A stretch of DNA of 64,000 nt from Amoebophrya sp. A120 (GCA_905178155.1 CAJINV010000013.1:1264392-1328391), one strand, 5' to 3'; shown: positions 1 through 58,215, numbered from the stretch's first letter. Notes: generated by a model not told the origin, from the sequence alone. Numbers and translations: made by a program.

Positions 1-2020
1 GATTTTTTCTGCTTTCGTCCGAAATTGTAGCACTTATTTGCTGCTGTTGTTGTACCTCGCCCCGCGACAGGAACGCACGACAGACGTGGAAAATCGTGGT
101 GGACTTTCCGGTTCCTGGCGGGCCCTGGATCAGGTGGAGTTTGGAGTGCTTTTCCTCGTGCAGCTTGTCCACCGCCCGCTTTTGCGCCGCATTGATCGGC
201 ACAAGGACTTCTGGGTAGTTCGGGTTCGCTGGGCTACTAGATGTAGTAGTGCTGGCAGTCGACGTAGTTCCGGCCACCGCGGACGAAACAGAAGTGGAAG
301 GAATTTTCAGACCACTAATACTTGGGTCAAAATTTTCATCTGCTGGTACTGCGACTGCCGCTTCTACACTCCCTTGCAGCTTCTGGTGCAGCATTCCAGG
401 GTTCAGGACGAAATCTTCCAGAGTTGGGGGTTTATCTTGTCCAGTCTCTTGTAGCGCAGCATGCGCTGCCGCTCCGCAAAGAACATTCGCCTTCTCCGCC
501 ATCGCGAGGCGCTTCATAATCGCAGTGTACTGCGACACCAGAGTACCCACGAACGCCACGACGTGAAAAACCGTGCCCACCCCGCCTTTCAGCCCGGTAA
601 GAAACACCGTGTCCGGGCGGGACGGGAACTTTATTCTTCCGTTCTTCCGTGGTCCTATCGTCTCCCGCACGGTCTGGATGTGGAAATACTTTTTTTTCCC
701 GACGGAGCCTTCCTTGTCCGGGCCCGAACTTTTGGTAAACACCACCCAGTCCCGCAGCCCCAGTAGCTGCAGCCGCCGTCGCTCGTTTTCTACTTCGTCT
801 CTGGTTGCGTTTTCCACCATTACATTCCGCGTGCGTCTCGCGATCTTAGCTGCTTCTTTCCGCTCCGCCTTCGACATACTATTCTGGGCTCCCGCGCCGG
901 GATCGTCTGCTTTCCCTTTCCCCTGCATCAACGCACTTCTGGGTGGAATTTGGGCGGTGGGTCGCTTGGACTGCAGCTCCTCCTTGTTCGCGGTGCTGTC
1001 GTCCTCTTCGTTTTTACCCTTACCACCACCGACGGAAGCACTCGCGTCCGCGCTGCTCGCGCTTGCGTTGGACCCCTTGAGCAGCTCGAACTCGTGGTAC
1101 CCCGTGGATTGGTCCGTGTATCAAAGTGAAAAAAGCCCCCACCCCATATCGGAAACGGAAGATGCGCGAATTTGTGATGCTGTATTTGAGTACACAAATC
1201 AACTTGTATTGCTAGAAGGCCAAGAGACGAAGCTGCGGCCTAAATTGCAGGTAATCTGTCATGCTGTTTCCCACTTCCAGTTGCCTTCTGTCATCCTGGA
1301 GCTGCAAGGCTTTCCCACGCTAGACAGCACTACAGTCCGCATCTTTTGCCTTCTAGCATCACAAAGCTGATTTGTGACCACGTATCTGCATCACAGATTT
1401 CCGTTTTGATATGGGGAGGGGGCATTTTTCATTGTAATACCGTGTGCGTCTTGACCACGCGGATCTGCAGCAGAAACTCCTCGAATATGGGAGTGTCAAG
1501 ATTGAAATCGTCAGAGTTGAAATGATTTGTCATGCATAAAATGCAATACAAAAAGTGACTCTATTGCAGAGGACGCACGGGAGGCAGATTATAGTCCTGG
1601 TAAGGGTCAAACGTTGGACTGCTGACTAGCATGACAGAAGGCAGCTCTTTTGCCCTAAACCGCATGACAGACTCGCTTCCAGGACCGGGGAAATTTGTCA
1701 TGCACCGACTACAAACTGTAGGTCTAACTGGTATCCGTTTTATGCATGACAAACTATTTCAACTTTGACGATTTCAAACCTGACACATCCATATCGAACG
1801 CCGGGTGCGTAGTGGTCACGGCGGTCAGATACTGCTGCTTCACGTTGTGTCGCAGGGTGCTGTAGTAGTCCTTTTTGGAACTGTAATTGGTCTCCATCGG
1901 CTGAAACACGATATCCGTCTGCGGATTTACCAGCGCGTTCGCCTCCGCGAGCAGCTCCTCGTGCGGCTGCGTCCGAGCAGCGCGAAGGTTCTGCTTCCGG
2001 GTTTTCACCGTAGATGTCAT
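1..2020 (-). CDS. Upf1/SETX/IGHMBP2-like SF1 helicase, N-terminal part; runs off the window start; two introner-type introns
   Basis: Removing 1486-1793(+5) and 1119-1439(+5) joins MTSTVKTRKQ... to an open frame containing INAAQKRAV (Q motif) and LIQGPPGTGKSTT (Walker A typical of Upf1-like helicases) near 95-195. No stop before position 1. Confidence 0.85.
1119..1439. mobile_element. Introner/MITE family C (divergent copy), 321 bp, DR CCGTG
   Basis: TIR TATCAAAGTGAAAAAAGCCCCCACCCC / GGGGAGGGGGCATTTTTCATTGTAATA; DR at 1114-1118 and 1440-1444; removing 326 nt restores the helicase frame. Confidence 0.92.
1486..1793. mobile_element. Introner/MITE, unique family, 308 bp, DR TCGAA
   Basis: About 55-bp imperfect TIR (TATGGGAGTGTCAAGATTGAAATCGTC... 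/ ...GACGATTTCAAACCTGACACATCCATA); DR at 1481-1485 and 1794-1798; removing 313 nt restores the frame. Confidence 0.92.
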
Positions 2021-2823
2021 CTTTGGAGGAAATCGATGATCATAAAAACGAACGAAAAGAAGGAAAAACCTTGCTCAAAATTCCACTTCTTCATCCAATT
2101 TCAACATTGAACGAGAACGGGATGGAAGAAGGAAAGATAATGATAAAAGTCGTAAAAGTAGCGACGGCAGTACACTGTGTACTGCTAACTCTGCGTCAGG
2201 AACAGTACAAAGTTGCTAGTGTGTGTGAGGTATCAAGATCATATCGACGAAACGCGCTGTGCCAAAAATTCCACCGTTCTTCTTCATCTTCTTGCCATTG
2301 CTATAGCTTTGCCCTTTGCCGAAAATAAATGTTCCCACTGCCACTTTCCGTCCGGGAAAAGGCAGCGCTCTCGTATCACTCAGGCACTCGTTAAAAATCG
2401 TGAAGATGATCCTTAAATGAACCACTTCGTGTGTCAACGGTTTTCAGTGATTCCGATCGTGTAGGTTGGAAAGCCGGTTCTTTCTGAGGCGAGGTCTGCA
2501 CGGCCTGCACGTTTCTGAAAACTTCACCCCCTACCTCGAAACTCTTTCTTTTTACCAAATTTGTAAGCGCTCTTTGTACGACGGCGATCATCAACATCCG
2601 GCTGTAGAAGAACATGTTCCTTCGCGCGATCCACCTTTGGCGGCATCCTACAGCTTTGCGTAGAAGCATGATATTGCTGGGCAGCGTGCAATGATCGCTG
2701 TTCTTTCCCCCACGAAGTTTTGCAATGTAGTAGAGCCGCGCACGACGAAATTTGCACATAGAAGAAATCTTCCCACGTTAAAAACATCCAATCGCGTCGT
2801 CAATGTCGACACCAACCAAGTCT

Positions 2824-6487: not shown

Positions 6488-9400
6488 CTAATCACCCAGC
6501 TCATCCTCGTCCTCTACGTCTTTCTTCTTCGAAGGTTTTCCCTCTTTGTTTCCCTGCTCGGACGACACCTGGTCGGAGAGCATGGACGCTAATTGCTCCT
6601 GCATCATGCGCATCATCTTCGCTTCCTCTTCGTTGCCGCCCTGGTTTGCACCTGGGTTTATTTTTTTTTCCGCAATTTTAGTTTTTGTTTTTCATTCACG
6701 ACAAGGAAAGGCAAAAATGATTCTCAGACTAGGCACCAGTACTAAAACCAGGGATTCATTTTCATTGGGCAAGATATGAAAATTACAGCCGCTACGACTT
6801 CCACCAGGTGCGGAGCCAAATGAGGCGAAAAGAACACAGAAGCAGAGCAACCAACGAATTATCTATCAAGCCCTACACTCTTGTACCTGCGTTGTTGTTT
6901 CCCATTTCCAAGATGTCGATTCCCCCGTTTTGGTCGAATTTTACCGTGAACCGCTGCACTTCGACGGTCTTCTTCTTCCCACTGGCGCCTTCTGTTGAGT
7001 CGGTTTTTCCCGAAGTAGTAGAACCGTGTGCTGTCTCATGATCTTCGGATGCTGAAGTTTGTTCCGTCGCACCACTCCCTGATGCTTTCTTTTTCTTTTC
7101 CGGCTTGAGCTTGTGCAATGTGATTTCATTGTCCGCGTTGTCCTCCTCCTCCTCCTCGGTCGAGGAGGCGCGTCGGGACGCGGCCGAATCTTTGCCGGCA
7201 CCCCCGCTTAGCTGATCACTCCCCCCGCCGAACAACTTCGACAATTGCTCCGCCAATTGATTCGCAAAATCGTCATTCAAAACGTCACCGCCGCCGCCAG
7301 TGTGCAATTTGAACTGGACCGTAGGAGGGGATGAAGTCTTTCCTTTTGTCTTGGTGTTCGAGTTCGCCCCCGATCCGCCGGTAAAAAAAGTGTCGCCGTC
7401 CACGTTCACAGCCCCGAACACCAAACGCGGCTGCTCTGCTCCGCCAGAAGTTGCACTGTCCTTTTTCATCTTGTTCTCTGAAGTTGTCGTGCCGCTGTGT
7501 TCACTTGAGGCACCTTGGTTTGCTTTCGACGTTGCCTTGTTGTTTTCGATGTCACCTAGCGGAACCTCCGCTAGCTGCTCGAAAAGAGACTTCGGCGAAA
7601 GGATTTCAGCCTCCAGTCGGCGCAGTTCGCGTTCGAGTTCGATTCTGGTGTGAACAGGCACGACCTCCGCGGGCGTTGCGGTGGGGGGTTGTTCGGTTTC
7701 GGTCTCTAAAGCGACGGTGCTGCCGGCTTCGTCTTCGGACTGCAGTGAAACTGTTTCACCAGCAGCGCTGCCTGGGGGTGACGCTGTTTGCGGTGTCGGC
7801 TCGTCGTGGACGCCATGCTCATCACTTCTTCCCGACGATATCTCCACTTCGGTTGTTGCGGTTTCAGTCTGGTCTGGTGTTGTCCTTTCGTCTTCCTCAG
7901 CAGCCGCGACTTCAACAGTGCTGCCCGTGTCTGTGGTCGTGGTTTCCGCGTCCGAATCTAAACTTTTGCCAACATATCAAATGTAAAGTGTCTGGGTCTG
8001 GAAGATTCATGCTGTTTTTGCATGACGCAGAAGGTGTGGCATGGAAGCTCTAGCATCACAGGTTTCGAGAAGCTTCCGCAATGCCGAACCCGCATGAGAA
8101 ATCCCCCATTTTGGTGACAGAAAGGGGGTAGCTTTTGCTACCTATGCATGAGAGATTTTTCTGTGTTCGAAAATGCGCATCACAAGTTCGGATCCTTCCA
8201 GACCCAGACATTTTTGCATTTGATACAACATCTTCGCCGCTAATTCCTTCCACCAGCTTGGCCCACGCGCTTTCCATCTCTGCTTTCGACTTCTCCTCTG
8301 CGGCTTTGCGCTCCTGCTCTTCTGCTTCTAAACTTGCCTGCCACAGCCGCAGCCTCTCCGCCGCCAAGCGTCTGTCCTCTTCCAGCCTCTTTTGCTCCTC
8401 CGCAGCGCCCACGATCAGGTCTTCGCGCTCCTGCCAAAAATCGTTAATTCTCAACCACTTGTCGAGCAGCTCGCTCGTCGACTTTTCTTTCGCACCACCC
8501 TCGTTGGTTTCTGCGGCACTGGCTGGCGCTGCCCTATCATCGTTCTTGTCGGCCGACAGCAATAGGTCGGCAAATCTGTTCGGGGTCGTCAAAATGGAGG
8601 GGTGCCGTGTATAGTCCAGCTCAGGGTCGACTGGCGGAATCGTAGTTGTTGATACAACTGGAGCAGCAGCTATTTCATCTTCAGCATCCGCTGCTGTTTG
8701 AGGAGGTACGGACGCATTTGCTATTTCTACATCTCCGCTTGTTCCTGCAGGTCGTCCACCAGGACCGGTATCTTGTCCCGCCCTCTCGTCCTGTCTACGT
8801 CCCTCTCCTGCGGCCGCATCAGGCTGGTCTGGCTGCGGGGTTCTACTGTGGTCCCCTCCAAACAAATCCGGGAGCTGCTGCTCCTGTGCAGTGGGATCAT
8901 CGGCTCTTCCTTCAGCCCCCGTTGTTTGTGGTGGTCTACTCGCTTGTCCTGCTGGTGGCGCACCACCTCTATCCTCTTCTGCAGCTGTCCGCGTGGTCGT
9001 GGTTTCGTCGTGTTCAGCCAAGGCGGCCAGGGCGGCGCGCAGCTGTATCCTGAGTAAAAACGTACCCACACCAGAGTTGTAATGCAGATTTGCAAAGACA
9101 GGAAGACTCGTAATGCGCATCCCCATGAGAGCCATTTCCAATTGTGTTTTGGAATTTGTGATGCTGTGAACAGGATGAGCAGATGAGTCTGTGATGCTGC
9201 TGCACTTGCTAACCTGCACTACACTGCAGAGCGCAACTTGTCATGCATGACTCACGAAACTCCTAGGTTTGTGTTGCAAAATCCCCATCCTGACTCTGGT
9301 GTGGGTACGTTTTTACTCAGGATAAACTGCTCTGTGTCCTCCTCATCTTCGCGAGATGTGGGAGGAGAGGGTGTAGTGGCTGTACTTTCTTGCTGCTCGC

Positions 9401-12400
9401 TGTTGTTCGGGGTGCTATTTGCTGGGAGTTCTTCCGTTCTCGCTAGGTTCACGACCTCTGCAGATGTTTCTGTGCTCCCGGCATCTTGTTGAGCGGCTTC
9501 GGGTGTTGACATGTTACCCGTGTTGGGGTCTGGTGCGCCTGATGGACCCATCTGCGGCTGTTCTTGAGCATTCTGAGCATTTTCCGTTCCAACTGGAAGA
9601 TGAGCTTCCGGTGGTTCTTGGGGAGGCGATGAAGGTACATCAGCATTCGCCTCGCCCCCGACCTGAGGTGTTGGAAGATTTGGGGCAGAGGATTGCTCCT
9701 CTGGTGGCGCAACAGGAGGGAGCGATGTACTGTCTGGATCAGCAGAGCCTCTTGCTTCTGCGCCGTTCTGCGGTGCCTCGCCAAAGGTTTCACGACCAAG
9801 GGGAGCATCCGGATTACTATTTTCATCTCTTGGAAGTGCAGTTTGATCCGCGGCGCCGGCGCTCGTGTTCATGTCTGCTCCGTTACTTTCATCCGCTGTT
9901 CTACTTCCAGGCAGATCCTCTCCGGCACTACCTACGGTTGGTGCAGTTTCCCCCGAAGACCGATCTTCCTGTCGCTCCTGCGCTTGCGTCACAGGACTCT
10001 CATCTGCTCCTCCCGCTTCTCCTTTCCCAGCGACTCCCCTCGCACTACTCCCCTCGCTTGCCGTCGTTGCAGCTTCTCTGGCGGTCGCAACCAGGTCTTG
10101 GATGAAGTCGCGAAGCTTCACGTTGCCAGTGCTTCCGCTCGCCTGGTGGCCCACAGGACCGCGGTTGTCCGCTGCATCTCCGGTGCCAGTTTCGGGCAGG
10201 TCCTTGAAATCCGACGCAGTTGTTGAGCTTCCATGCTGCTTGAAAAATTCCTCGTCCTGTCTTCGCAATTCCTCTGCAGTCAGGTGCTGTTCTTGTTCCG
10301 CAGACCGATTTCTTTCCGGTATTGATGTTGCGTCGGGGTCCTCGCTCACCGCGTCGGAATTCGTAGACTGCTCCTGGTTGGCGGTGCCGGACGCGGTGAC
10401 AGGTGGTCTTTCTTGCCGCTTTTGAAGCACATCAGTCGCCTGATCATCCTCGGGTGCAGGCACAGTACCTGTTCGGCTGGCTTCTGCTGTCCCCTCTTGC
10501 GGGAGAGGAACCGACGGTGCGTTTCCGTTCTTTTCTGCGGAATTTCTAAGATCTACTTCGTCAACTTCATCTTCCAACAACCTTACCTCCTCTTCCATGA
10601 GCTTCTCCATGAGCGAAAAAACCTCCGGCACCGAAGCGGTGGGCTGCGACATTGCCGCAGTCGTGTTGTTTGTTAAAGCAGCATCTCCTCCGGCCGCGGA
10701 GGTCTCTGCATCTACTGCTTGTTCCTCGCGGGAGGTGGAAAACACATGATCCTTTTTCTTCGTTTGCCTATCCTCGCCCTCCTCCAGCAGCAAATATTTG
10801 TCTAGCACCTCTTCCAGCAGTTTGCGCTTTTCCGGCTGCTGATACAGCTTCTTGTTTGCGAGGAGCTTTTCCATCAGGTAAAAGTACTGCTGCGTGGAAA
10901 AGAGCTCGTACAGCTGCGGGCTCTGGCCGGTGTTGTCGCTGTAGCTACCCGCCGATGTTGTTCCATCCCCGCTGTTGGACGACAGAACCTGCATGGGAAC
11001 CTCTGAAAAAAATTTTACCCGTCCCCTTATCTTCGACGAAGCAGAGTTCTGTTTTTGCTCCGGATTTTTATCCCGGCGCCCGAGCTCGTCGAACTGGGCC
11101 TGCATCTTGTCGTGCAACTTGTTCTGTAACTTCTGCCACGCCTTGCTGTGCTCGAAGTAGTCGATATCCAAGAGAAAAAGATTGTAGGTGTAACTTTCAT
11201 TTTTTTGGAGGAACAGCATTACAAATCTGTCTGGCATGAGAGCAGAAACCTGTCACGCGCAGATAGCATGTCAAAACCCGCATGAATGGACCCTGCAATG
11301 CATGTCCAGCATGACAGACGCAATCATCTTTGTGTTGCGCATCACAAACTTACACTAACAATGTTTTTTTCCTGCATAGTCGATACTGGCCTCCTCGTTG
11401 AAAAACTGGTCCATGTGGAACGGCTTTCGCCGCCTCCTTATCAACCGCAAATATGTCTGGGTCTGGAAGATAGGAATATTTGTCATGCACGCCTGACATG
11501 ACCCATGACGGCTGTGATGTATGCCCTAGCATCACAGATTTTCTGAGTGCTTCTTCAAGCCTATCCTGAATGAGAAATGCCCTCACCACGTGGCAAAAAC
11601 TGGACTCCTATTGCTTGCCATGCAACACAGATTTTTTCAGAGTCCAAAAGGAGCGTCACAAGTTGCATCCTTCCAGACCCAGACACATTTGCAATGCATA
11701 CTCCTCTTCCGGTTCCTCGAAGACGCTGTACTGCTCCTACCTTTTGCTGCCCTTTCTCCCACTTGTTGCCCATCAGGACGAACTTGGAATTGACCACTCG
11801 TCGCAGAAATTCCTACCTCGCCCTGCGCGAACCGCAGCGCGCGCCTCCGAACCATGAGCTGGATCAGAATCTGGTCGTACTGCGGGTTTCCGACCACCTC
11901 CTTACGTACGTACTCCCGCAGGTTCAGGAAGCTGATGCCCTGCAGCAGCACGGTGCGCAGGTTGGGAATGCGGTCCAGCTCCTCGATCAGGAACTCGTAC
12001 ATGTCGAAAAAGGAATCTTGCTGCACGGCACCGTTGACTTTTTGCCCAGTAGAACTGCTTTTTGAATTACCTGCGCCGGCGGCCTCGTCTACGTAGTCAA
12101 CAACATTTGATGTTGTTGCACTACTGGTCGTACCTGCTCCGCGGCTTTGTTTATTCCTCTTACTCCTCTTGCTCCCTCTCCCTCTATTTTTTCCGCCGTC
12201 TCTAGCCGCGTCTGCCTGGCCCGCTCTGGTCGTGCTGCCGTGCTTCAGCCGCATGCCCTTAGTGTAGGCCTCTTTCAAAGAGATCACGTCGCTTTCCGGG
12301 TACACTTCCCGGAGGGCGAGGGACAAGCCGTTACTCAGTCCGTGTTCGGTAGCAGTCGTGCTGGCACTACCGTAAAAGCCATTCGAAGTGGCGATCAGCT

Positions 12401-41367: not shown

Positions 41368-42098
41368 GTAAAAAAAGAACGTGGTCGTGTAGTGTGTTTG
41401 TTTTCGACCTTCAGACGGATTTCATGGCAATAGTACGGTGTAAGTATCTCACTGCGTAATTTGATCGCGCCGTAACAACTTCCGAGCTTGTTGTTCGGAG
41501 CAGTAGTTCTGCTGCTTCCCTTGTGTTCCCTCGGAGTGCGGACGGTTGTCACTTTTTCGTATGTAAGTGTTCGGAGCGGGCACTACAACTGCAACAGACA
41601 AAGGCACCGTGCTGCACGACCAGGGCCGCTCACATTTTTCTTTCTTTGGTTTCCGGCGGTTTAACCTCGTTCGCATCGCTCGACGGAACTTTGCGCAGTG
41701 AAAATCATTCTGAGACTACGTACAATTTTTGACTGTTTATGAGCGCGAGGCCGAGAGGAGCGACAGAGTGGGTTGCTTTCACCACAGGAAAAAATCAGCG
41801 CAAAGCTGGAAGTACATAAAAGAGGGAGTCTTCTGTGGAAAAATGCCAGCCTTCACAGATAGCTGACAGCGTCCAATGCAGCGAGGTAGCTGAAATATTC
41901 ACTGCTGGTAGTCGTGGGGTCAGTCGTTCTTTTCATTCTACTTTTTCACGTTTCCACAAGTTTAGAATGATGCGACGCTTGTAACGATTGAAGTGTCTAC
42001 TAGGTCTTCTGTTGCAGTCCACTGGTAACTGCTATACAAAAAAGTGCAAGCGGGGAAGCCTTCGGCCGGAGCAGACCACGCATCGCCAGGACATCAAA

Positions 42099-45000
42099 AT
42101 GAGCGATAATCAAAGTCGAGCGATCTCGCCACCGCTAGTGCCGCGTTTCTACGCCCGGTGCCCCGAGCAGTCGGATCGAAAAGAGGTACCTACGACGAAC
42201 TGTTGAAGCTTATGCGTTTTTCGTCATGCAGAATTCAGACAACTTCAACTCACAATGCATGTACGCATCACAAGTACTTCTTTACTTCAGGCCGCGCACT
42301 TCGATATCGGCAGCCCAGACGGGACACCCATGAACGACGACCTGCTGATGCAAAGTATGGCTTACCAGAATGGAACTTCACATATGCTGCGTTTGACATG
42401 CTGTTTTGCTATCGCCACAAGAAAATGAGAAGGCACGACAACAGATCACTCTTTGACTCAAAGGCGGAAGTTCAGACTGTCGAGCGTTTCAGTTTCTAAG
42501 AAAGGAAAAGCTCCCGGGGGCATGATGAATTTCGCCAGGCCCTGAGAGATAGCAAAGCGGCTTGGAAAAATTGCGGGGGCAGTTTTCATTCCCATAAAGG
42601 ACCGTACGGCGACATGTTGTTGGAGCAAAAGGAACCAGAAGGCACTAAGTATTGAGCGTTATCTGTGATTCAAAATACGTAGTAGCACGTAGCTACGTAA
42701 GAGCAAGCAGAATACGAATATCATTTTTCACACGGAATGCAGATGGCTCAATGTACTTTCGCTGCCTTCGTGCGTAGAATCAAACCAAACATGAAATATT
42801 CACAGGGCCACTGCGCAGCATGCCGCTTCGCTGCCACCAGCAACTGCCGGCACTTCCTCTTCAAGTTCGACCTTTCTCAACCGGATTCCAAGCCCGCTGA
42901 AAAAACGACGGTCGGTCGTGGCAGAGGAATCCACGACGCATACCTCATCGCCAGTGAAGGCAGCAAGCGGAACGACGAGCAGGAGCGCAAATCACGTGCA
43001 GAGCGGGAACGTATCTGCACAAGGAGCCACCGCCGTTTTCACCGTCTACCCCCCGAGATTTCCAACCGCCGAAGAAGAAGAGAACTACCTGCGGGACGAG
43101 TTACTGGACGGGTTTTCGGCGAAAGACGAGGAAGACGGTTCTCATGCGGTAAGAGAAGAAGGCGACTACGACGGTCAGGACTCGGAGGGCATCTTTGTCG
43201 ACGAGGAACTGTTGGTGTTGCCGGTGCACCACGGGCATGTGGACGAGAATTCGCGTGGGTCAACATCAAAGCCACGAGTGCAGCCCAGTCTCCTGCCCGC
43301 TGCCGCGGTTGAGGACCGCGAAATTTCCGAGGATCCAGCGATTATCTACTTCGACGGAGAACTCGGAAATAATAGCGCGGAATTCCAAACGCAAACTGCC
43401 ATGGTCGACCTCATCGGACAGTCTTCTGTTGGCGTATGGAATAGAACGTAGGGTGAGTCAGCTGAACATCGTTTTGTTATGCGGAGGCTGCGTAGTTTCC
43501 TGCCCCTCCGGTCATTGATCTGTTTCAGAATTAGCAGGCTTTCCTATTAGCAGGCTTTCTTTCATCACCCTCGGAATTATCGTTAGGAATTTTTGAATTT
43601 AGCATGTCCCTCTCAACACCGCATGAAAAATGTCAGCTTGACTCAGATTTTCCAAAGGATATCCTGCGGGTTTGGAGCTGTCACGGATCACTGAGGAGCA
43701 GGCTACGAATCGGAGTAGTGATGATTTGTTTTTGATGTTGTTTGAACTCAGTCTCACCCATTAGCAGTATTTTTGTCATGCGCCAATATTAGAATACGAT
43801 CTCCTTTCCTCTACCACAACAGGCGACCTGCTTCCGGAAGACGGATCACAAACCGGCGAAGAATCCGTGTCCATCCCGGAAGTCGGCGCTGAGGTGCTGC
43901 CGCAGATGTTTCGGGAACTGGTAGAGCAGGATCGACAGGAGGACTTGAGCAAAATCGTGTCGCATGTTATGTCACTCTGCGGAGAGGGAGAGGAGGAAAA
44001 GTTAAAGTATTTTAGCATTATCTGTTTCATTCACGGACGTTGCTTCTGATAGAATAGTATGACGCGTCTTTATTTGCATGTCAGAAGGGGTGAAGAAAAA
44101 CATTCAAGTCAGACAAAAATTTAAATTATCATCGCAGCTCTGCTGCCGCAAGTACCAGCGACGAGCCAGAAAGCATGTGCCTCACCCCGACGCTACCAAT
44201 AGCTGCACCTCCAGAAAAAGAAGCGCCTCCGTTCGACAGTTCTGCGGCAACTAAGAGCATTCCCGACGACATCGGTTCGTCCTCTTACGCCGTCGAGGGC
44301 CAGCATCAGCAGTTGCTCGAAACGAGCGAAAACAACACGTCCTTCAACAGCGCAACTACTCCCGCAGCTCTTGTTCCAACTTCCCTTCCGAACCTGAAGC
44401 CTTGCGAGTCGCTGGAGGATCTCACCACGGGCCCGAGCTCGGTGCGGCGGCAGTGCTCCCGCGTGGATTCGTTGACGCAGATTTTGGAGAAACACATGTA
44501 CAAGGACGAAATCGTGCAGCAAAACTGTTTCCGGGAGGATCTCCACCGCTTCAAATTCGACCTGAGCGTGGACCTGACAAATGTGGAGCGGGAGGCGGAG
44601 AGTGTGTTGCTTAACAAGTCGGTGGAGGAACAAAACGGGGACGACAAACTGGGCGAAGCGTTGGAACGGCTGGCGAAGAGGAGACAGGAGATGCAGTAGA
44701 ATTTCATCTGTTCGATAGGTTTTCAGTATGTGTGCATGTTGCTTGTTCGACACGTTTCAAATCAATGTGACTGCATGCTGTTGCTGACTTCGGCTACAAG
44801 GAAATGCAAATATGCAAAAATTATGAAATTTCAATGATCCCCCAGGTCCCGTCGCGAGCCTGCAGCCGCCCGTTTCGCCGATCTGAAGCAGTCCACTGTG
44901 GTGCACACCACCACTGCCTCCCAGCCGCCCTACCGGCAAGGGCACGACCCAACGGTCTATCAAGCAGAGCAATCTGTGGTCTCGATGCCGCGGCGGCCGG

Positions 45001-48000
45001 CTTTTGCCTCCCAGCCGAGGAACTTGTTCGGCGCGAAGCGGAGCACGAGTAGCGGTGGACAACAAGGGATGAATTATTCGCAGAACACGAGCCGCCGCTG
45101 CGCCTCCACGAACACGATCCGGGGCTTTGCGCGCGCGGGGGGACAGGTGCTGCTGGATGAATCGACTGAGCTAGAAAAGAAGATCGCTAGCCTAACGGCA
45201 ACGCAGCGTCGCACCCACTCCGCGCGGTGCCGCAGTCGGCTGGAACAGCGCGGGCCGGGCGGAAACGGGATTGGTACTTTTGGAACTGCAGGGGGCTCCT
45301 TTAAAGCCCCTGACAGAAGTAGTGCTCCACCATCCTCTACCACGAGTTTCGGTGGTGTTGCGAGCAGAAGCGGCACCACTCGCGCTAGCAGTGCTTTTAC
45401 GCAGAAGGAGGCAGGCTATGGGAGGAAATTTCCCACATCCATTGGAACAGCAAGCCGTCAGCTCCGGGGGCTCTCGCTGGAAGCGAAGCAGAACGCGGAA
45501 AATATGAAGGTACTACTGGGTGTATAACGGTGTGTACCATGCGCATGCATGAATGCAATGGTTTCTTCAGCACATATCCCAAAAAGCCGAGGTCGGTAAA
45601 CATAATTGTCGTGGTGATTTTTCAGCCCTTCACAAAAAACAAAACCAGTTCTCCTCCGGCGGCGCGTTGTTCAACCCGCAGCCGCGGATTAACCAAAAAC
45701 CCGCGACGGCGTACTCCAACCCGAAAAAGTCGCACGAGTCTTTCATCACGTCCCTGCGACAGCCGCAGAAGTTTAAGAAAAAGTCCAGTTACATGTATCA
45801 AATGTAAAAGTGTCTGGGTCTGGAAGGATGCGAACTTGTGATGCGCATTTCACAACACAGACAAATCTCTCATGCATAGGCAAGAAGCTAAAGTCACGGG
45901 AGGAAATGAGAAGTCGGCGACTCAACGAAAATCAAAACAAGCGGAAGCGAAAAGCACAAAGCAAAAGACAGAAGCAAGGGAGTTGGCCGAGCCAGTGCGA
46001 GCGGAAGTAGACCCCCTAACTTCAAAAGCGCCGCACTCATTAGAATTTTCAAAGGGAGGGCATAAAAGATACTCAAAGGAAGCCGGGGCATCGCAAGACC
46101 AAAGAGCAAGTAGCGCTGCAGGACAAAGAGGGAGAGCGAGCAACAGTGAAAACGTGAGGAGAAGAAAAAGCGCCGAAGGAGAAAGAACAGAGTCCAAAAA
46201 GAGAGAAGCAGAAGGAGAAGATACAACGCAAAGGAAAAGGCAGAAAAGCAAACAGCACGGAGATAATAAACAAGAAGCAGCCGAAGAGGTGGAGACGCTG
46301 GCGCAAACGATGCAGCGGATTATCAGCGAACCCTTGCAGATGGGCGCAGGAGGGAGAGCGGGAGGACGACTACAGGCGACGCAGGATCTCTACGGTTAAA
46401 CAGCTGAAAAGTCTCTAAGTCAGCCCGGGAGTCGCGTCTGAATGTTCTACAAGTTTGAGAAATGCACTTCGTTGACCGTTTGAAAACACATCACTGCAAG
46501 ACTTTGCCGGCTGCTGAAAAGTACAGCAGTCCAGTGCAGTAGAGTTCTAAGTCTGAAATAGAAACAGGAGAGCGCTAAAAAAAAAAAGAAAAAGAAGCCT
46601 GCGAGAAGATTCGCGCGACTTGGTGCGTTCGTCCCAAAGCCTCGCCATTGCTCTAAGAGCCTTCAAATTCTTCCCAGCTAGTGGATCCATTAAGCGGCCG
46701 ACGAAATTGATACAACCAAGATCAGCACGGGAGCACTCAGGCAGATCACGAGGCAGGGCGAGGAACTTACAGGATCCCAAAAATATACTAAGCAGGTAAA
46801 GAAGATCGAGCCCATCCAGATAGATAAGCCCGGAGACGATCCAGACCAAAAAAAAAAAAAAACAAAATAACTACGCAGGTAACGAGGCCAGGCGTAGCGC
46901 AGAGGGTTCGACTTGAATGCGCGAAGATTCTGAACCGCGAGCCGGGAGCAGCTAGCTAGACGGGAAAGGGGAGAGTCAAAGTGGGGAAGAGGCAGGAGAG
47001 GAGGCGACTAATGTTGAGGAAGGAATGAGGCGAGTTGAATGGCGGCGAGTTAAATTGAAATGGAGGCGAGTTAAAGGTGAAGAGGGGGGCGAATTTAATT
47101 GAAGAGGAAGAAAAGAGGAAGGAGGGAGATGAAGCATAAAACAGGAGGCCATCAGCTCGTAGATATAAGCTCCGCCATTTGTATAAGTAAGACATTTTCT
47201 TTTATAGTAAATCAAGAACGGCGCGAGCACCTTATAAACCCCCCCAGCCGTCCCATATTTGCATGTGCGGGGAGTCTAAGTAACATGGCTCGCCCGAGTC
47301 ATTGACGAACCGGGAAGATGGGAGGTGGGGCTTACAGTCTTCAGACAGGCCAGCCGCCGTGAGGGACTACCGCCTCTGTTATTGAGGATAGCGTGTGTCC
47401 TCCTCGACTGAGTTGCGTGCGCGGCCCATCCGTGTTCCGCGTAAACCTCTACAGGAGAGTGTGCGCCGCGTCGAAAGGCTCCCTTCCGTACGGAGCGCCC
47501 CGAACCCTTTTTAGCGCACCTTTATGATGGCCTTACTGTTGAAAGGATGGAGGGAGTTACATCAGTTTTTAGAACCCAGTCTGTTTATGCTAGCAAAGGG
47601 CTAGTGCGCTGTGGACCCCCAGGATCAGGTAGACGAGGTCCCAGACCGAAGTGGTAGGCGCTTAGGGTGAACTATGTATGTAGCGCTTAGGGCCCTTCCG
47701 TACGGCCAATTTGTATGCCCGTAACGGGGTTCGCCTAAGTCGGTAATTTATATGCAAGGCGTTGGGTTACCCGGTCGGCAGAGCCGATCCACAACGAACG
47801 AACGATAGGCAGCAAAAGGTGCCCACTTCCTGTCCCTAAAATGGGGGATTTGTCATGCGGATTAAGCAATGCGGAAGCTTCTCGAAATCTGTCATGCTAG
47901 GGCTTCCATGACGGACATTTTGTGTCATGCAAAAACAGCATGACAAGAATCTGCATTCTTCCAGACCCAGACATTTTTACATTTGATAACATGTCCACTT

Positions 48001-51000: not shown

Positions 51001-52800
51001 CACAGCTGAATAGTACCAATAGTTTTGCGCACCAGCAGACGCAGCAAGCGTTTGCGCCGCAGCCGCGCGTGGGTGGATTTCTAGCTGGCTCGGTACAGTT
51101 TGGCACAGCAGGAAACTACGTTGCCTCGTCTAACGTTGCGTTGCAGCCCCCGACGACCAACACCCGTCTCCACACCACCCGCAGTCCGCAGCAGCAGCGC
51201 GCGTTTTGCGAACGGTTACACGATGGAGGAGACCGCCGCAGCCCTCCGCGCATGGTCAGTCAGAACGTGACGCAGCCGATTTACAGCCAAGTTGTGGTTG
51301 GAAACAATTCAAGCGGGGGACCACAAGTGCCAGTAGCGCAAACGAGAGGGGGAAAGGTGTTGAGCCCGCCGCCTTTGCAACGAGGGAGCTCCTGCAAAGT
51401 CAGCAATCTTCATCAGCAGCCGGCAGCAATTATCCCGTCAACGACGGTGAAAACTTCGAATCCGCAGAAGATGCTAGCCTGCCTGCAGAAAGAGATCAGC
51501 AGCGGTGACGTAGCTGTTGTGTCTTCAGCCACGACTTCTAGTACTGGGCAGGCGACCTATCCGACATCGAAGCTAAATGCTCCGCCGCCACCACCGCAAC
51601 ACAGCGCGACGCTGATGTCGCACACGTTGATTATCCTGAGTGAAAATGTCCCCACCCCAGGCCCAGGGTTGTCATGCAAATCTGCATACCAAAAAAGTTT
51701 CTCATGCGGAGCCCCATGAGAGCCATCTTCTAATCCTGTTTTGGATTTTATGATGCTAGAATCAGCATGATATGCTACATCTGTGATGTTAGGAACTAGC
51801 TAAACAGGATTACACTACGAGGATAAACTTGTCATGCGAAACAACCAGAGGTGGCCGATTTGTGTAGCGGATTTCCCATCTTGACTCTGGTGTGGGGACA
51901 TTTTTACTCAGGATATTGATCCCCGGCGCGAGCCCGGGGACAATTAGCACCTGTTCCACTTCCGCGGGCACCACCCCCCTGACGCTGCACGCCCCGGCCC
52001 TGCTGGTCCCGAGTAGCAGTGCTGGTTGCCAACAACAGTCCGGGTCCTCTAGTAGGACAAGTGGAGGAGCCTCACAACAACACGCCGGTGTGCCGGCTTT
52101 GATCGTGACGAATAAACCCCCGGCGCACAACAACTCCACACCGCCCCCGTCTGCGCCGGTGTACTACAGGAGTAGTGTGATGGGGAACAACCACAATTGT
52201 TCTAGCTTCTCCTCTTCAGCAAGCTTAATCGGTGGAGCAAATCATGCCATCATCCGAGGTGGAGCTGCCAATGTGATCAGCAAGAGCGAGATGGGAAAAA
52301 TTGTTGGCAGTGGAACTACACCAGGTCCTACAAATACGTCTGTGGACGACCACGGAGCAAATGCAAATGCAAATCCGGCGGGGAAAATCAATAACAAGAA
52401 TTTACTGGAGCAGCAACAGGAGCAGTTGCAGTCGATTCTGAATTCCAGTGTGGTGTCCACGCCCGAACAGGAGATCGTCGGCGCGGAGGAGTACTACAAG
52501 CTGCAAAACAAAGGCAACTATCGCAGCCACAAGCAGTGGACGCCGGACCACTGGGCGAGTAACTCGTGCACGACGACTTCGCACAGCACGGAGTTTGGCA
52601 GCAGCAACTCGTGCCACCTGGCGGAGGAATTGAGTCGCGAGGCCGACGTGCAGGATTTGCTGGCGGAGGAGGAGGAATTGCTCACCACGATGGGCGTCAA
52701 GTACAGTCCCAGCACGAGTTTCGAAAATTTGCTACTCCGCAAAAAATTAGGCATCCACTACGCGGATCAGCACGGAATTCTCAGCACGGCGGAGTGCTGA
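42099..52800 (+). CDS. Very large Ser/Thr/Gln-rich low-complexity hypothetical protein, multi-exon; 5' exons uncertain
   Basis: ORFs at 42918, 43867, 44175, 44898, 45553, 47922 and 51892 can be linked by GT-AG introns and by introners 45796-47988 and 51632-51915 (both frame-checked). Confidence 0.6.
43435..43820. mobile_element. Probable degenerate introner-like intron; right end uncertain
   Basis: Starts G-TATGG; internal IR GGGTGAG..AACATC / GATGTT..CTCACCC; possible DR TGGCG/AGGCG giving an in-frame 391-nt removal. Confidence 0.45.
45796..47988. mobile_element. Introner family A, DR ACATG, split by a nested 1.9-kb insertion
   Basis: Both TIRs intact; the halves align to the reverse complement of 7975-8225; removing 2198 nt joins KKSSYM to STSLIL in frame. 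Confidence 0.92.
45883..47804 (+). mobile_element. 1,922-bp nested insertion with 7-bp TSD ATAGGCA and (AACG)3 tail; probable non-autonomous retroposon
   Basis: ATAGGCA at 45876-45882 and 47805-47811, where uninterrupted family A copies have one corresponding site; no TIR or LTR; no RT or transposase ORF. Confidence 0.75.
51632..51915. mobile_element. Introner/MITE family B, 284 bp, DR TTGAT
   Basis: TIR TATCCTGAGTGAAAATGTCCCCAC / GTGGGGACATTTTTACTCAGGATA; removing 289 nt restores the frame (SHTLIPGAS). Confidence 0.95.
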
Positions 52801-54005: not shown

Positions 54006-54057
54006 CTTGTCGTTTTGGCGCACGGTGGCATCTTGTCGTTTTGGCGCACGGTGGCAT
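54006..54057. repeat. Perfect 26-bp tandem duplication CTTGTCGTTTTGGCGCACGGTGGCAT
   Basis: Two adjacent identical copies. Confidence 0.9.
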
Positions 54058-54436
54058 TTGCCGTCGCCGATGCAACAGTATTAGTACCCTTGATGTCGTT
54101 CGTCATCGCAACAAAATCGTCGTGAAAGGAGCTGTCACTTCCGAGAGCGTAATCGACGAGTAGGCGAAAAAGCCCTTGCGGTGTTGGCTCGGTACGAGGA
54201 AATTTTCGACGTGAAGAGAGGAGGGCAACACTGGATTTTTCTATGAATAACGTGATCGGACGAGTTTGTACATGTAGTGCGCGTACTAGGGGTAGCAGAT
54301 AAAGTGCACAGCTTCACTGGAGGCTTGAGCATTCAAAGCTTTCGATTTGCTCCTTTCCAGACTTTTTTTTACCACCATAACAATCTAATTTTTGGACCCA
54401 ATTTGAAAGTTTGTTTCACTCGACCGCAAAAAAAAA

Positions 54437-55970
54437 ATGCGGTTTCCCGGCAGCGCAACAAGCAACTCATCCTCCTCGTTCACCTCCTTCTACGTGGACT
54501 GCGTGCAGTCGATGCAATGCGGCGACACGAAGTCCCCGAACCCACTCACCACACTGAAGAACTCACTCCTCACACCCACCTCCTCCTGCCCCTGCAAGAA
54601 GGCGGTCGAGGAGTTTGGCGACCGGAAACTGGTGAGCTCCAACAGCCCGGTCTTTTCCACGGGGGAGCAGAAGTGCGACCCTTTGTCCTACTACTACGAC
54701 GTGCAACGGGACACCTGGTACAAGTGTTGCGGCCGGCCGCTGGATATGCCTTGCAAATATGTCTGGGTTTGGAAGTGTGCAAACGTATCATGCTAAATCT
54801 GAATCTTGCAAATATCTGTGTTGCGTGACCCGCAGAAGACACCCACTTCTTGCCACCTTCAAGGCGAATTTCTCATGCGGAATAGACATTAAGAAGGAGA
54901 AGCTGCAGCTGCAAAATTTGTGATGCGTCCGGATGCATTCTGCACCATCTCAGTGCTGGTCCACGAGATGCATGACAAACTTTGCTTTCTTCCAGGCCCA
55001 GACATATTTGCACTTGATACTGGACCCAGGGAAGGAAAAACTCCCGCTGATCGGCGACGCCTTCACCGAGATGATTATTACAGTGAAAAGTGCCCCCCCC
55101 ACCCCTGAAATTGCAAAAATTTGTGATGCGAAGTTTCCAAATGAGAACTTTGTGTCATGCATGAAAGGAGTATGAATCTTTCTGATGCAGAGTCTAGGCG
55201 TGTATCGCGTCGCTTGCATGACAAGCGCCGCTCTTGCTGGGGTCTTTTGCAATACAAATTTTCGCTGTTCGCGATTGGTAGCCTGTGATGCTGATAGATG
55301 CAAGAGGGCGAGTGTTTCATTTGGAAAGGTTTGCAATACAAATGCTCCCAAGTTCAGGGGTGGGGGCATCTTTCATCATAATAATGATCGACAAACCCTC
55401 ACTGCTTTTCCCCACCGGCGTGAAATCTTTTTTGAAAAAAGTAAAGTCCGCGGTGGTGGACAACGCCACGGCGCTGTTCGGCGCGGGCGGCTTTATGGGA
55501 ACGCAGGGAAAAAAGCAGCAGTACTGTGTGGAAATGAAGCGGTCAAAAGGACCGGACGTGTTGGAGTCGAACAGTAATATTGAGAAAAAAAGCTAGCAGG
55601 ACATATTTGTCTATGTAAAAAGATATGCTGACGCATGAGCAAGAAAAAACGATGCTTTGGACCCGCCGGTGACATAATTTTTTGCCTACTTCTTCTTTTT
55701 GCATTTAGGAATATGCCCTACTAATAGGTTTTTTCCCATGGGATAGCCACTCCGTTGATGGACGCCAACGACGTGCGCAATGGCAACGCGTTCGAAGTGC
55801 CGCGGTACAACAACCAGCTGATCTGCATGACGCCGAAGTTTAGCAAGCTGCTGCACCAGGAGCGGGGCGACTGCATGTGTTGGAACAGTCGGGAGGAGTG
55901 CATACGAATAGGAAAATACGGCAAGCGAACGCCGGGGATGGGGCATAGATACAATGTCTTTTTTGTATGA
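54437..55970 (+). CDS. Cys-rich hypothetical protein with two introners; last junction (~55560-55727) unresolved
   Basis: ...KCCGRPLD|PGKEKLPLIGDAFTEMI|DKPSLL... joins in frame after removing both elements +5. Confidence 0.6.
54745..55019. mobile_element. Introner/MITE family A-related, 275 bp, DR CTGGA
   Basis: TIR TATGCCTTGCAAATATGTCTGGGTTTGGAAG / CTTCCAGGCCCAGACATATTTGCACTTGATA; removing 280 nt restores the frame. Confidence 0.93.
55076..55383. mobile_element. Introner/MITE family C, 308 bp, DR ATGAT
   Basis: Reverse complement of 25529-25834; removing 313 nt restores the frame. Confidence 0.95.
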
Positions 55971-57005
55971 TACGGAGACGGAGGAGAGTCGTGGCAGAGT
56001 AGTTCGTAGTTCGTTGTAGTTTGTTACTTAGCATTGGCTCTGTCGTGTCTGTTTTCCCTGCCGGTCTTCTCAGCTCCGACTCCTTTGTTTCTGGTTTATC
56101 AAGATGGCACTTCGCTTTGGTTTTGGGATCTCTGTCTTGATATACAACTTTAGCTGAACTATTTTTGCGTAGTGAACGAGAGTGTATGAAGATTTTTAAC
56201 TACTGGGCTATGCTTGCCTAAAAAGAACAGAAAGAGATTTTGCACCAGTATCTGTTGCATATCTGGCTAAAGGGCGCGTTTGTACAGCTCGAGCGGGCTT
56301 CCTGTCTGGCGGCATGACATATGTTTTTCGTCGCTGCTCTTTCGGTCCACCTAAGCAGATGCGTCGGCTTTTCACAAAAGAAAAGTACTGTAAAATGTTG
56401 TCCGCGATGAAAGTGAAAAGAGATATTGGATCTGTTAATCACCTGCTGCATTGCTTTTGCCTCTGACCTCCTCCAATTGCATAGCGCACAAGCTCAGCTT
56501 GGATGCGCGGCGACCTCGGTTTGATGCGATTTTTTGTCTTCGGTAATGTCGGAATCTTGTCCCGCGAAGGTCACACAGGTCTAGTCGGTAACAAACTATA
56601 CGAAAATAGGATGGTGCGTGCCACTTTCTCGGTTATGTTGAATCGACTTCGGTATTTCCACGAGCTAGATGACTGTGGAAGATCTATTTGATGACGCAAA
56701 AGTCTTCACGTCAACTCATGCCCGCAGGCGCAGAAGCGGCGTACAGTTTTCTGTACACCTACACAGTAAAAATTGCACCGAACAAATAAAAGAAGTGCAA
56801 GGTTTTATAGTGTTACGCATCGTGGTTTTGCTCAAATTTGTCTTTGCTCTAGCCTCACACGAATCGTGTATAGAACAACATCAAAGGTCATGAGCTTGCA
56901 CCTTCAGATTTAGCGGACTTTCCCGTGAGAACAAAATCAGTTTACAAAATTAATCCTCTAAGATTCATTTTCGATATATTACTTGAAAGAAAAAGGAAAA
57001 TCAAA

Positions 57006-58215
57006 ATGGGTAACCAACCAGCATCCGAAGTTGGGTCCGCAGCTTCCTCCGCCCGCTCCAGCAAGCGGTTTCCCGTGATCACGCTTGGTTCGACCCTGGA
57101 GTTCCGCGCAAACCAGGGCAAGGAGGACGACATGCTGCAGTTTTTGGTGATGGCCCGGGACGCCGTCGCGCAGACCGAGAAGGAGGGCACGCAGAACTGG
57201 TACGGCGTGCGGTACTTCCCCATAGCCGATCTGGGGCAGAAGCCGCAGCCGGACCGGTTCGGCATCGTCGATTTCTTCGTGGACGAGGCCGCCCAGGGCG
57301 CGCACTTCTCGGGCGAGGTCCCGAACGCGGTGGCGGCCAACGACCAGACGGAGGACCCCATCGTGCAGGGGGGACTGGACGCCATCGTGGCCAGCCACCG
57401 GTCCTGGCGGCTGCTGACCAACCCGCCGAAGCTGACGGAGGAAAAACGCATGAAGCACGCCAAGTTCCTGTCCTTCATCCCCATCCGGGCGGGCAGCGAG
57501 GAGCAGGTGGAAGCCCTCAAGGAGCTGCTGTTCGGTGGGTTCCTGCTGGTCTCGGAAAACGAGAAGAAGACCTCCTTCTGGGCGGCTTGCCAGAACGAAA
57601 ACGACCCCTTGGAGTTGTATCCAAGCCGAAAATAAATCCGTCCTTGAGCTGTTGAATTATACTGAGACATCAGTCAATGACATAGGACCTCCGGCGCAGA
57701 TTTGTTCTGCAAACGATATCGCGAGATATTCTCGCAAAGTTACTCTTTAAGCATGCTGATGCACACAACTGAACTGCTGCTCCAAAAGCGCGCCTCCTAC
57801 TGAATAAAAGGGTGGACCACACAACTGAGCAAGTGCTCTCGTCGTGACACCATTAAGTATAACAACAGCTCAAGGCTGCATTTTTTTGGGTCACAAGTTT
57901 GCTATCATCGACACTTTCGACTCAATCGGGGGTGTGTATGCGCACTTTGTGGAGCCCGCTTTGGTTCCTTCGGCGGTCCAAGCGGCACTGGTTGACAACC
58001 CGGATTTGATTGAGGGCGGCTGGGAAATCGGGGTGGTCGCCAACATCCGCGTCTTTCAGATCGTCGCATCGTACGCAAATGTTGCTTTGTCTCGCACCTC
58101 GATGGCTTTTGATCGTTCTGATAGATCCATACCAGTACCAAAGGAAGTGGATTCTTTGATAGGTCTTTGCCACGCCCCCCACTGGAACTGCCTTTGTATG
58201 ACACAGCGAAAATAA
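57006..58215 (+). CDS. Tandem ABM-like (dimeric alpha+beta barrel) protein with possible N-myristoylation (MGNQPAS)
   Basis: Two repeats: GTQNWYG...FGIVDFFVDEAAQGAHFSG and KTSFWAA...FAIIDTFDSIGGVYAHF, matching the ABM pattern; the second repeat is split by an introner. Confidence 0.7.
57618..57895. mobile_element. Introner, unique family, 278 bp, DR AGTTG/AGTTT
   Basis: IR core CCTTGAGCTGTTG / CAACAGCTCAAGG; TATC...CACA ends; removing 283 nt gives DPLEFAIID. Confidence 0.88.

What the first reader, a model, noticed from the sequence alone, without database searches (positions are those of the whole stretch)
1119..57900. A system of 19-20 TAT...ATA inverted-repeat elements acting as non-GT-AG introns
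Seen: 19 inserts plus one doubtful, from three multi-copy families and several singletons. All found lie inside coding exons; I saw none in intergenic DNA. They have terminal IRs starting TAT and ending ATA (two end ACA), and 12 have perfect 5-bp direct repeats. Removing element+5 nt restores the frame in the 18 cases with clear ends, including inside conserved kinase, SDR, L/F-transferase and ABM domains. They coexist with ordinary GT-AG introns in the same genes. Established: transposon-derived introners with IR/DR and non-canonical ends have been reported in Amoebophrya, so the class itself may not be new, but to my knowledge its excision mechanism is unresolved. Inference: a second, structure-guided excision pathway works alongside normal splicing.
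Basis: partly seen in the sequence, partly recalled or inferred. Interest (0 to 1): 0.92.

Follow-up and report, generated by a model that had tools for sequence, protein, structure and literature searches.

The report
Transposon introns cut by fixed ruler
These are the already published transposon-derived introns of the marine parasite Amoebophrya A120, which lack GT-AG ends yet are missing from transcript assemblies; the cut appears to fall at a fixed spot (one base before TAT, four after ATA) in either orientation, likely made by a rewired spliceosome.

Summary
All 17 listed gap sizes match elements in the window. Three were seen removed in an RNA-type assembly (256, 284, 284 nt), on a contig that also lacks a GT-AG intron. 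The window is Amoebophrya sp. A120, and the class (TAT-start introners with inverted and direct repeats) was published for this strain (Farhat 2021), so the system is known.

What this check adds, not found in five literature searches: (1) A fixed cut. The intron is N-TAT...ATA-NNNN. All 6 informative junctions fit it, two uniquely, and nearby AGs are ignored. Five of the six rest on gene models, not reads. (2) Removal works in either orientation: both orientations occur in 14 of 17 families, and two opposite copies are both spliced. (3) The 5-bp target duplication carries no GT/AG signal. (4) All 17 families share an internal octamer TGT[CG]ATGC spaced 31-33 bp apart, which old, still-spliced copies have mostly lost, so it is likely a transposase site.

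Selection on RNA stem pairing was not detected. The machinery is untested: U1-less spliceosome (0.5) versus a separate Euglena-like pathway (0.35).

The parts
1119..1439 (-). young element, 321 nt, perfect 5-bp target duplication; predicted intron 1115-1440
   Evidence: 96% relative in L044
1486..1793 (-). young element, 308 nt, perfect duplication
7975..8225 (-). family A element, 251 nt; 256 nt absent from RNA-type contig
   Evidence: X4 record 1
9046..9324 (-). family B element, 279 nt; duplication differs at position 4 and the RNA contig keeps the upstream copy, so the AG in the downstream copy is not used; opposite orientation to 23850
11165..11378 (-). young element, 214 nt
11439..11700 (-). 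family A element, 262 nt
17661..17826 (-). old element, 166 nt, inside the kinase domain; gene model allows only the cut 1 nt before TAT and 4 nt after ATA (ends CT..CC)
23850..24128 (-). family B element, 279 nt; 284 nt absent from RNA-type contig (from record coordinates)
   Evidence: X4 record 4
25220..25470 (-). family A element, 251 nt
25529..25834 (-). family C element, 306 nt
30271..30447 (-). old element, 177 nt, ends ACA, in L/F-transferase-like gene; protein reads KYKSDLGG, allowing cuts (1,4) or (2,3)
33229..33394 (-). old element, 166 nt, ends ACA, in DDI1-like aspartyl protease gene; gene model removes element+5
33678..33883 (-). old element, 206 nt; gene model allows only cut (1,4), ends CT..GG, passing over an in-frame AG one base earlier
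40439..40617 (+). old element, 179 nt, in extended SDR gene; A120 model FTTKDW, A25 ortholog FSTKDW
42356..42596 (+). candidate old element, 241 nt; frame restored by +5, not verified
43435..43661 (+). candidate old element, 227 nt; frame restored by +5, not verified
45796..47988 (+). family A element carrying a 1.9-kb insert (about 45881-47803) between short ATAGG repeats; no Pfam hit in 5 insert ORFs
51632..51915 (+). family B element, 284 nt
54745..55019 (+). family A-like element, 275 nt
55076..55383 (+). family C element, 308 nt
55578..55745 (+). candidate old element, 168 nt; not verified
57618..57895 (+). old element, 278 nt, ends ACA, duplication 4 of 5; not verified
23132..23332 (-). 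ordinary GT-AG intron removed on the same RNA-type contig as element 23850
25266..25430 (.). example of the internal octamer array GCAT[CG]ACA (25266, 25299, 25338, 25423)

Best explanation
The elements are non-autonomous inverted-repeat DNA transposons of Amoebophrya A120 that sit in exons between 5-bp target duplications and are missing from RNA-type assemblies; the cut appears to fall 1 nt before the opening TAT and 4 nt after the closing ATA in either orientation, and is likely made by a U1-less spliceosome that reads these end motifs instead of GT-AG. SHOWN: anatomy, 5-bp duplication without target preference, removal of element+5 nt at three sites, both orientations removed. STRONGLY INFERRED: the fixed (1,4) cut, which leaves one intact copy of the target (4 nt of the upstream copy, 1 nt of the downstream copy), so any insertion is scarless. 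INFERRED: the signal is the short symmetric code N|UAU-N7-AAAA ... UUUU-N7-AUA-NNNN|, which is what old copies keep. The internal octamers on a 31-33-bp spacing are DNA-level sites for the mobilising transposase, not splice signals. SPECULATIVE: U+2/A+3 stand in for the canonical GUA donor, and the A at -7 (UUGAUA, yUnAy-like; consensus recalled) is the branch point from which the AG-free 3' cut is measured.
For: RNA-level removal: (X4 contigs skip 256, 284, 284 nt and GT-AG introns; X6 contigs at flat depth 45-54 run from flanks into elements). 5-bp duplication: 258 of 362 TIR-defined pairs perfect at 5 bp, 0 at 6, 7, 9, 1 at 8. Fixed cut: 6 of 6 informative junctions allow (1,4) and no other register fits all: 9046 from RNA contig allows (0,5) or (1,4); kinase and DDI1-a allow only (1,4); SDR and DDI1-b allow four registers each; L/F-transferase allows (1,4) or (2,3), and 13 of 14 homologs have L, one I, none V at the deciding residue. 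The register was written down, before the three tightest tests. All 9 top A120 non-canonical classes in Farhat Table S4 begin N-T. No signal in the duplication: AG at positions 3-4 in 21 of 212, G at position 5 in 68 of 212 (exon background 31-33%), 5' and 3' end logos equal; predicted GT-AG in 8 of 259. Both orientations in 14 of 17 families; 9046 and 23850 are opposite and both removed. Octamer: 41 in 3.5 kb of elements vs 6 in 60 kb outside; in 17 of 17 families, no strand bias 370:327; same-orientation pairs at 30-34 bp 15.9 vs 3.1 expected, maximum 10 in 500 simulations; as conserved as the TIR, 2.9% vs 6.7% internal change; exact copies in 1 of 9 old elements. For a spliceosome: 14 of 14 hand-delimited GT-AG introns start GTA; U1 not found in A120 or A25 while U2, U4, U6 were; U1 is present in a canonical-splicing Amoebophrya; tunicate precedent.
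Against: No result here touches the enzyme: no lariat, circle or branch point was observed. Five of the six register junctions come from predicted proteins, not reads, and only 3 of 22 candidates were seen removed in RNA-type data. X4 is labelled RNA only as a guess by the tool. Raw-read runs X10 and X11 laid 9 and 1 reads and were uninformative. The first and last intron bases are free (59 end classes among 259), which is hard for a spliceosome that normally pairs them. Old elements show no clear drift to GT or AG: both uniquely resolved ones start with C, and position-5 mismatches give G in the 5' copy in 2 of 8. Ordinary introns of the window lack the A-tract/ATA code, and Euglena's analogous introns are argued to use separate machinery. 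Table S4's N-T pattern may be shaped by the aligner. Farhat's figures (logos) could not be seen and may anticipate the register. No transposase was found, so the role of the octamer is inference, and the families may share ancestry.
Confidence: 0.5

Rival explanations
1. A second, non-spliceosomal machine (endonuclease plus ligase, as proposed for Euglena nonconventional introns) recognises the paired TAT/ATA ends and makes staggered cuts 1 and 4 nt outside the stem.
For: Full symmetry and orientation independence; free first and last bases; TAT pairs fully with ATA in 133 of 158 folds of young elements on either strand; strong hairpin in a young copy, z -9.5; the same staggered geometry as Euglena N3CDG...CHGN5-6|R; GT-AG introns lack the code.
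Against: No G.U-over-A.C bias in TIR changes (96:75 vs 333:316 inside, p=0.26; fixed mismatches 262:289). Hairpins of young copies follow from the TIRs alone. In old copies TAT/ATA is fully paired in the best fold in 1 of 9 (run with the kinase element's earlier, wrong boundary) and one precisely cut copy folds like shuffles. Shared U+2/A+3 with canonical donors and loss of U1 would be coincidences.
Confidence: 0.35
2. The elements are spliced, but the cut slides within the direct repeat and the apparent fixed register reflects gene-model or aligner conventions (the published view is that splice sites vary relative to the hairpin).
For: Farhat Fig. 3 legend and Fig. S23 legend state variable positions, 1-5 nt from the inverted repeats. 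Only six junctions were informative, five of them from gene models. A codon-score test on 47 mismatched duplications could not separate registers.
Against: Two unique and four compatible junctions all give (1,4). The RNA contig and the homolog motif are independent of annotation and together leave only (1,4) if one register holds. With perfect 5-bp repeats any aligner would report positions spread over 1-5 nt.
Confidence: 0.1
3. The elements are excised from DNA, like ciliate IESs, and transcripts come from empty alleles.
For: Transposon anatomy and phased internal sites that look like DNA-binding sites.
Against: X6 contigs cross from flanks into elements at normal depth, and no empty-site join appears among the 15 joints shown (482 were not shown). 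A second assembly also keeps such elements in genes. The same X4 contig lacks GT-AG introns.
Confidence: 0.03
4. The genes are pseudogenes that retain the inserts, or nearby GT-AG sites are used.
For: Some elements have a G before TAT or an AG close to the 3' end.
Against: Exact element+5 gaps in RNA-type contigs. Gene models end in CT..CC and CT..GG. Intact orthologs in A25. Removal of +5 scores best in 146 of 209 elements.
Confidence: 0.02

Closest known systems
Amoebophrya A120 introner elements / non-canonical introns (Farhat et al. 2021, PMC7789003)
   Same: Same strain (P0001, P0020, P0031 are A120 proteins matching the window); inverted repeats starting TAT + 7 nt + AAA; 3-5-nt direct repeats; about 240 nt; mixed with GT-AG introns; RNA-supported.
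   Different: The paper reports variable splice sites and no clear terminal signature. Here: strictly 5-bp duplication, one fixed cut, invariant T at +2, both orientations, shared internal octamer arrays. Its main text has no passage on element orientation, branch point or lariat; its figures were not seen.
Euglena nonconventional introns (Nomura et al. 2025, PMC12501133)
   Same: MITE-like inverted ends; cut sites at set distances outside a short paired motif, longer on the 3' side; no GT-AG; coexist with canonical introns.
   Different: Motif CDG/CHG at 3 and 5-6 nt with a purine required after the cut, versus TAT/ATA at 1 and 4 nt with no such preference seen here. Euglenid introns leave as circles (review); unknown here. 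Unrelated lineage.
Fritillaria borealis non-canonical introns (review PMC11282704; Soo et al. 2026, PMC13326754)
   Same: TIR/TSD transposon origin, non-GT-AG ends, removed by a modified major spliceosome.
   Different: There U1 is kept and U2AF has duplicated, and ends are biased to AG-AC/AG-AT. Here U1 was not found and the first and last bases are free.
Introners of Micromonas, Aureococcus, Symbiodinium, Polarella (Gozashti 2022 PMC9860276; 2025 PMC12130899)
   Same: Non-autonomous DNA transposons that create introns without changing the protein.
   Different: Those carry canonical or near-canonical sites or co-opt them from the target duplication. These take no signal from the target and work in both orientations.

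Membership tests
A120 introner elements (Farhat 2021) | located in the Amoebophrya A120 genome | tested here: met
   A120-named proteins 99-100% identical to window exons
A120 introner elements (Farhat 2021) | terminal inverted repeat starting TAT, 7 variable nt, then at least 3 A | tested here: met
   logo; paper text
A120 introner elements (Farhat 2021) | 3-5-nt direct repeat at the borders | tested here: met
   5 bp in 258 of 362; 12 of 13 young window copies
A120 introner elements (Farhat 2021) | removed from RNA with non-GT-AG ends | tested here: met
   3 sites, contigs; 5 gene-model junctions
A120 introner elements (Farhat 2021) | multi-copy families | tested here: met
   17 families of 2-107 members plus 18 unclustered among 301 elements
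MITE / non-autonomous TIR DNA transposon | TIRs, fixed-length target duplication, no coding capacity | tested here: met
   no Pfam hit in ORFs of the long copy
MITE / non-autonomous TIR DNA transposon | cognate autonomous element with transposase | tested here: inconclusive
   none among 7 longer TIR pairs in 487 kb of loci (only L019 was inspected, by eye); whole genome not held
MITE / non-autonomous TIR DNA transposon | empty versus filled sites between strains | not testable with these tools
   fetched loci share only elements, not genes, with the window
U2-type spliceosomal intron | GT (or GC) ... AG ends | tested here: not met
   8 of 259 predicted ends; CT..CC and CT..GG in gene models
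U2-type spliceosomal intron | lariat with 2'-5' branch, snRNP dependence | not testable with these tools
   needs lariat sequencing or inhibition
Euglena-type nonconventional intron | N3CDG...CHGN5-6|R signature | tested here: not met
   signature here is N-TAT...ATA-N4; works like it, is not a member
Euglena-type nonconventional intron | end pairing required; circular excision product | tested here: inconclusive
   pairing predicted in young copies but no wobble bias; product not testable
Ciliate IES (DNA excision) | absent from somatic DNA | tested here: not met
   present in X6 contigs at normal flank depth; joint list truncated
Group I/II intron or other Rfam RNA | match to a curated RNA model | tested here: not met
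   0 Rfam matches at gathering score in the window

The most novel reading that the evidence does not exclude
A120 has a two-fold symmetric splicing code, N|UAU-N7-AAAA...UUUU-N7-AUA-NNNN|, read without GT, AG, U1 or any target sequence and in either orientation, by a dedicated non-spliceosomal or deeply rebuilt machine. It makes every insertion of this 5-bp-duplication transposon scarless at the RNA level, while a separate helically phased octamer array drives the element's spread.
Probability: 0.35. Interest if true: 0.85.

Novelty: already known. Interest (0 to 1): 0.6.

Why it matters
About two thirds of A120 introns are non-canonical and how they are removed is stated as open in the source paper and a 2024 review. 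A fixed cut, a minimal symmetric code and a named candidate branch A turn that into direct tests: re-mapping existing RNA-seq, lariat versus circle assays, and reporter mutants. If right, it explains how a transposon can colonise exons by the tens of thousands without sequence preference, fixes gene-model boundaries in this genome, and offers an orientation-blind, scarless intron design.

Tried and rejected
No whole genome was held and the second assembly's contigs could not be searched as genomes, so no search for the transposase, snRNAs or empty sites was possible. RNA evidence covers only 7000-26999; 39600-58400 has none. Rejected: drift of old copies to GT-AG (6 of 9 old window candidates appeared to have G at +1, but one was a mis-set kinase boundary that is C, leaving 5 of 9; no trend). 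Rejected: an AT-AG hybrid intron in the DEAH helicase gene, which has an in-frame GT-AG reading. Rejected: apparent in-frame TAG codons at 43449 and 44697, which fall inside predicted introns. Length steps of about 52 nt: weak at family level (Rayleigh z 4.6 over 23 periods tried), not claimed. G.U versus A.C test: null. Stop-codon and codon-score test of the register on 47 mismatched duplications: uninformative. Viral contigs: 38 single 16-mer matches, best alignment to an element 35 nt, treated as chance. Rfam: nothing. Earlier scan notes: none. ABM domain: no Pfam support.
Full report
IDENTITY. Window exons match proteins named Amoebophrya sp. A120 at 99-100%. Farhat et al. 2021 (PMC7789003; I read the abstract, sections 10-12, 16 and 32, search passages, supplement passages and Table S4 rows; figures not seen) describe this class in this strain: 65% non-canonical introns, inverted repeats starting TAT, seven variable bases and at least three A, short direct repeats, no U1 snRNA found, mechanism open. 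The system is therefore known.

OBSERVATION. Thirteen young elements were found, 12 with a perfect 5-bp direct repeat. Forty shuffles gave no pair with a perfect repeat. A profile of the ends and reading of the sequence added nine older candidates with decayed repeats. All 17 gap sizes in the finding match element+5. The kinase element was first mis-bounded by me (17796) and corrected to 17661-17826 from the public protein.

RNA VERSUS DNA. On 7000-26999, contigs of run X4 join 7969 to 8226 and 9040 to 9325 with no other letters, and by record coordinates 23844 to 24129; the last contig also lacks two GT-AG introns. The tool marks X4 as RNA only by guess; the missing GT-AG introns are my ground for treating it so. 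Run X6 has flat depth of 45-54 outside elements and its contigs cross from flanks into elements; no empty-site join is among the 15 joints shown, but 482 were hidden. Raw-read runs X10 and X11 laid 9 and 1 reads. No RNA data were obtained for the rest of the window.

ANATOMY IN A LARGER SAMPLE. One metagenome-collection scan returned 151 loci (487 kb) with the same families; the 80 listed rows are all from assembly JACKZZ01. The sample is biased to family A by the pattern used. Among 362 pairs defined by inverted repeats alone (window included), 258 have a perfect 5-bp duplication, and 0, 0, 1, 0 at 6-9 bp; the target has no consensus. Removing element+5 scores best in 146 of 209. 154 of 180 have confidently coding flanks against 54-60% of random positions. 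Host strand was called for 259 of 313 (12 of 12 right in the window, whose exons trained the model). In sense orientation the duplication has no AG or G excess and the two end logos are the same. Both orientations occur in 14 of 17 families (48:39, 15:19, 12:11, 11:7 in the largest). Elements 9046 and 23850 are reverse complements in genes on the same strand and both are removed.

THE CUT. Where the two repeat copies differ, the product shows which was kept. At 9046 the RNA contig keeps position 4 of the upstream copy (cut 0 or 1 nt before TAT). The SDR model FTTKDW, backed by A25 FSTKDW, needs 1-4 nt. I noted the intersection, 1 nt before TAT and 4 nt after ATA. Then the DDI1-like model read LRSEQ and the kinase model PHRQG, each reproducible by that cut alone among 270 tried. 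The L/F-transferase-like protein reads SDLGG, allowing (1,4) or (2,3), with L in 13 of 14 homologs inspected. The second DDI1 element allows four registers including (1,4). So 6 of 6 fit, five from predicted proteins. Ends such as CT..CC are unlikely from ab initio prediction, so transcript alignments probably lie behind them (inference). All nine leading A120 non-canonical classes in Table S4 start N-T, as the rule predicts, though aligner effects are possible. The paper itself calls the sites variable.

WHAT IS KEPT, WHAT IS LOST. Old copies keep TAT, ATA/ACA and A-rich tracts near positions 11-15 from both ends, and lose the rest of the repeat. An internal octamer TGT[CG]ATGC occurs 41 times in 3.5 kb of elements and 6 times in 60 kb outside, in 17 of 17 families and on both strands. 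Same-orientation copies lie 31-33 bp apart (15.9 pairs vs 3.1 under uniform placement, maximum 10 in 500), opposite ones often at 15-17, 35 and about 47 bp. Three helical turns and strand symmetry point to a DNA-binding protein, and loss from still-spliced old copies (exact in 1 of 9) argues against a splicing role. A transposase site is the likely reading; none was found. Gozashti 2025 (passages) report A120 TIR elements with integrase-like ORFs, a lead for a 5-bp-duplication enzyme.

MECHANISM. Structure guidance is plausible but unproven. TAT pairs with ATA in 133 of 158 folds of young copies, which inverted repeats guarantee. Changes in the stems show no preference for G.U over A.C (p=0.26), and a precisely cut old copy folds like shuffles. 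For the spliceosome: all 14 GT-AG introns I delimited by hand (three backed by RNA or a gene model) start GTA, so N-UAU shares +2 and +3; U1 is missing in both non-canonical strains but present in a canonical one; and tunicates show a major spliceosome can adapt (abstract and one section; review passages). The 3' end reads UUGAUA-NNNN in the commonest form, putting a branch-like A at -7; that is speculation resting on a recalled consensus. Against it: free terminal bases (59 classes) and the close geometric likeness to Euglena introns, thought to use other machinery (abstract and discussion). I put 0.5 on a rewired spliceosome, 0.35 on a separate pathway, 0.1 on the register being an artefact, and 0.05 on DNA excision or no true removal.

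NOVELTY. Class known. The fixed register, orientation independence and octamer arrays were not found in the listings or passages from searches, nor in the term search of the source paper. Roy et al. 2023 and Henriet et al. 2019 were seen only as references. Farhat's Fig. 3 and Figs S19-S25 could not be viewed and may show part of this. Interest 0.6: a known system, but its stated open question now has sharp, cheap tests.

Noticed in passing
JACKZZ01 loci L001-L151 and window 1440-1485, 11379-11438, 25471-25528, 55020-55075: Neighbouring elements cluster: 51 of 114 gaps under 700 nt are 21-70 nt and only one is under 21, as if new copies land just beside old ones (linker-like spacing).
   Followed up: partly
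259 strand-called elements: Intron phase under the (1,4) cut is 126:62:71, a significant excess of phase 0 despite no target consensus.
   Followed up: partly
window 38665-38667 (+): In-frame TAG between two coding-like ORFs (37588-38667, 38668-39126); could be a 21-nt GT-AG mini-intron, a true stop or read-through.
   Followed up: no
window 42187-42291 and 43715-43822 (approximate): Two GT-AG introns carry the element octamer; exact octamers 0.9 per kb in 14 canonical introns vs 0.05 in exons (2 hits only), hinting that some canonical introns are old elements.
   Followed up: partly
window 45881-47803: 1.9-kb insert nested in a family A element between ATAGG repeats, purine-rich with poly-A runs; no match elsewhere in the window or loci, no Pfam hit.
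   Followed up: partly
window 26140-26860: Degenerate tandem repeat (unit like GCCGAACGACTTAAG) inside a long predicted intron of an Rpb4-like gene.
   Followed up: no
window 34700-37300: AT-rich core (about 35560-36330, 27% GC) between GC-rich blocks at the point where gene orientation switches from minus to plus; possibly a divergent promoter, origin or centromere-like region. No terminal repeats found.
   Followed up: partly
window element positions, run X10: A 2026 RNA run under the same species label does not map on exons but holds reads 90-99% alike to families A and B, suggesting a related strain shares the elements (9 reads).
   Followed up: no
L019:505-1608 and L071:3991-5021: Longer (1.0-1.1 kb) TAT...ATA elements with perfect 5-bp duplication; L019 shows no obvious transposase ORF by eye.
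   Followed up: partly
14 hand-delimited GT-AG introns in the window: All start GTA, and many have A/C-rich rather than pyrimidine-rich 3' ends.
   Followed up: no
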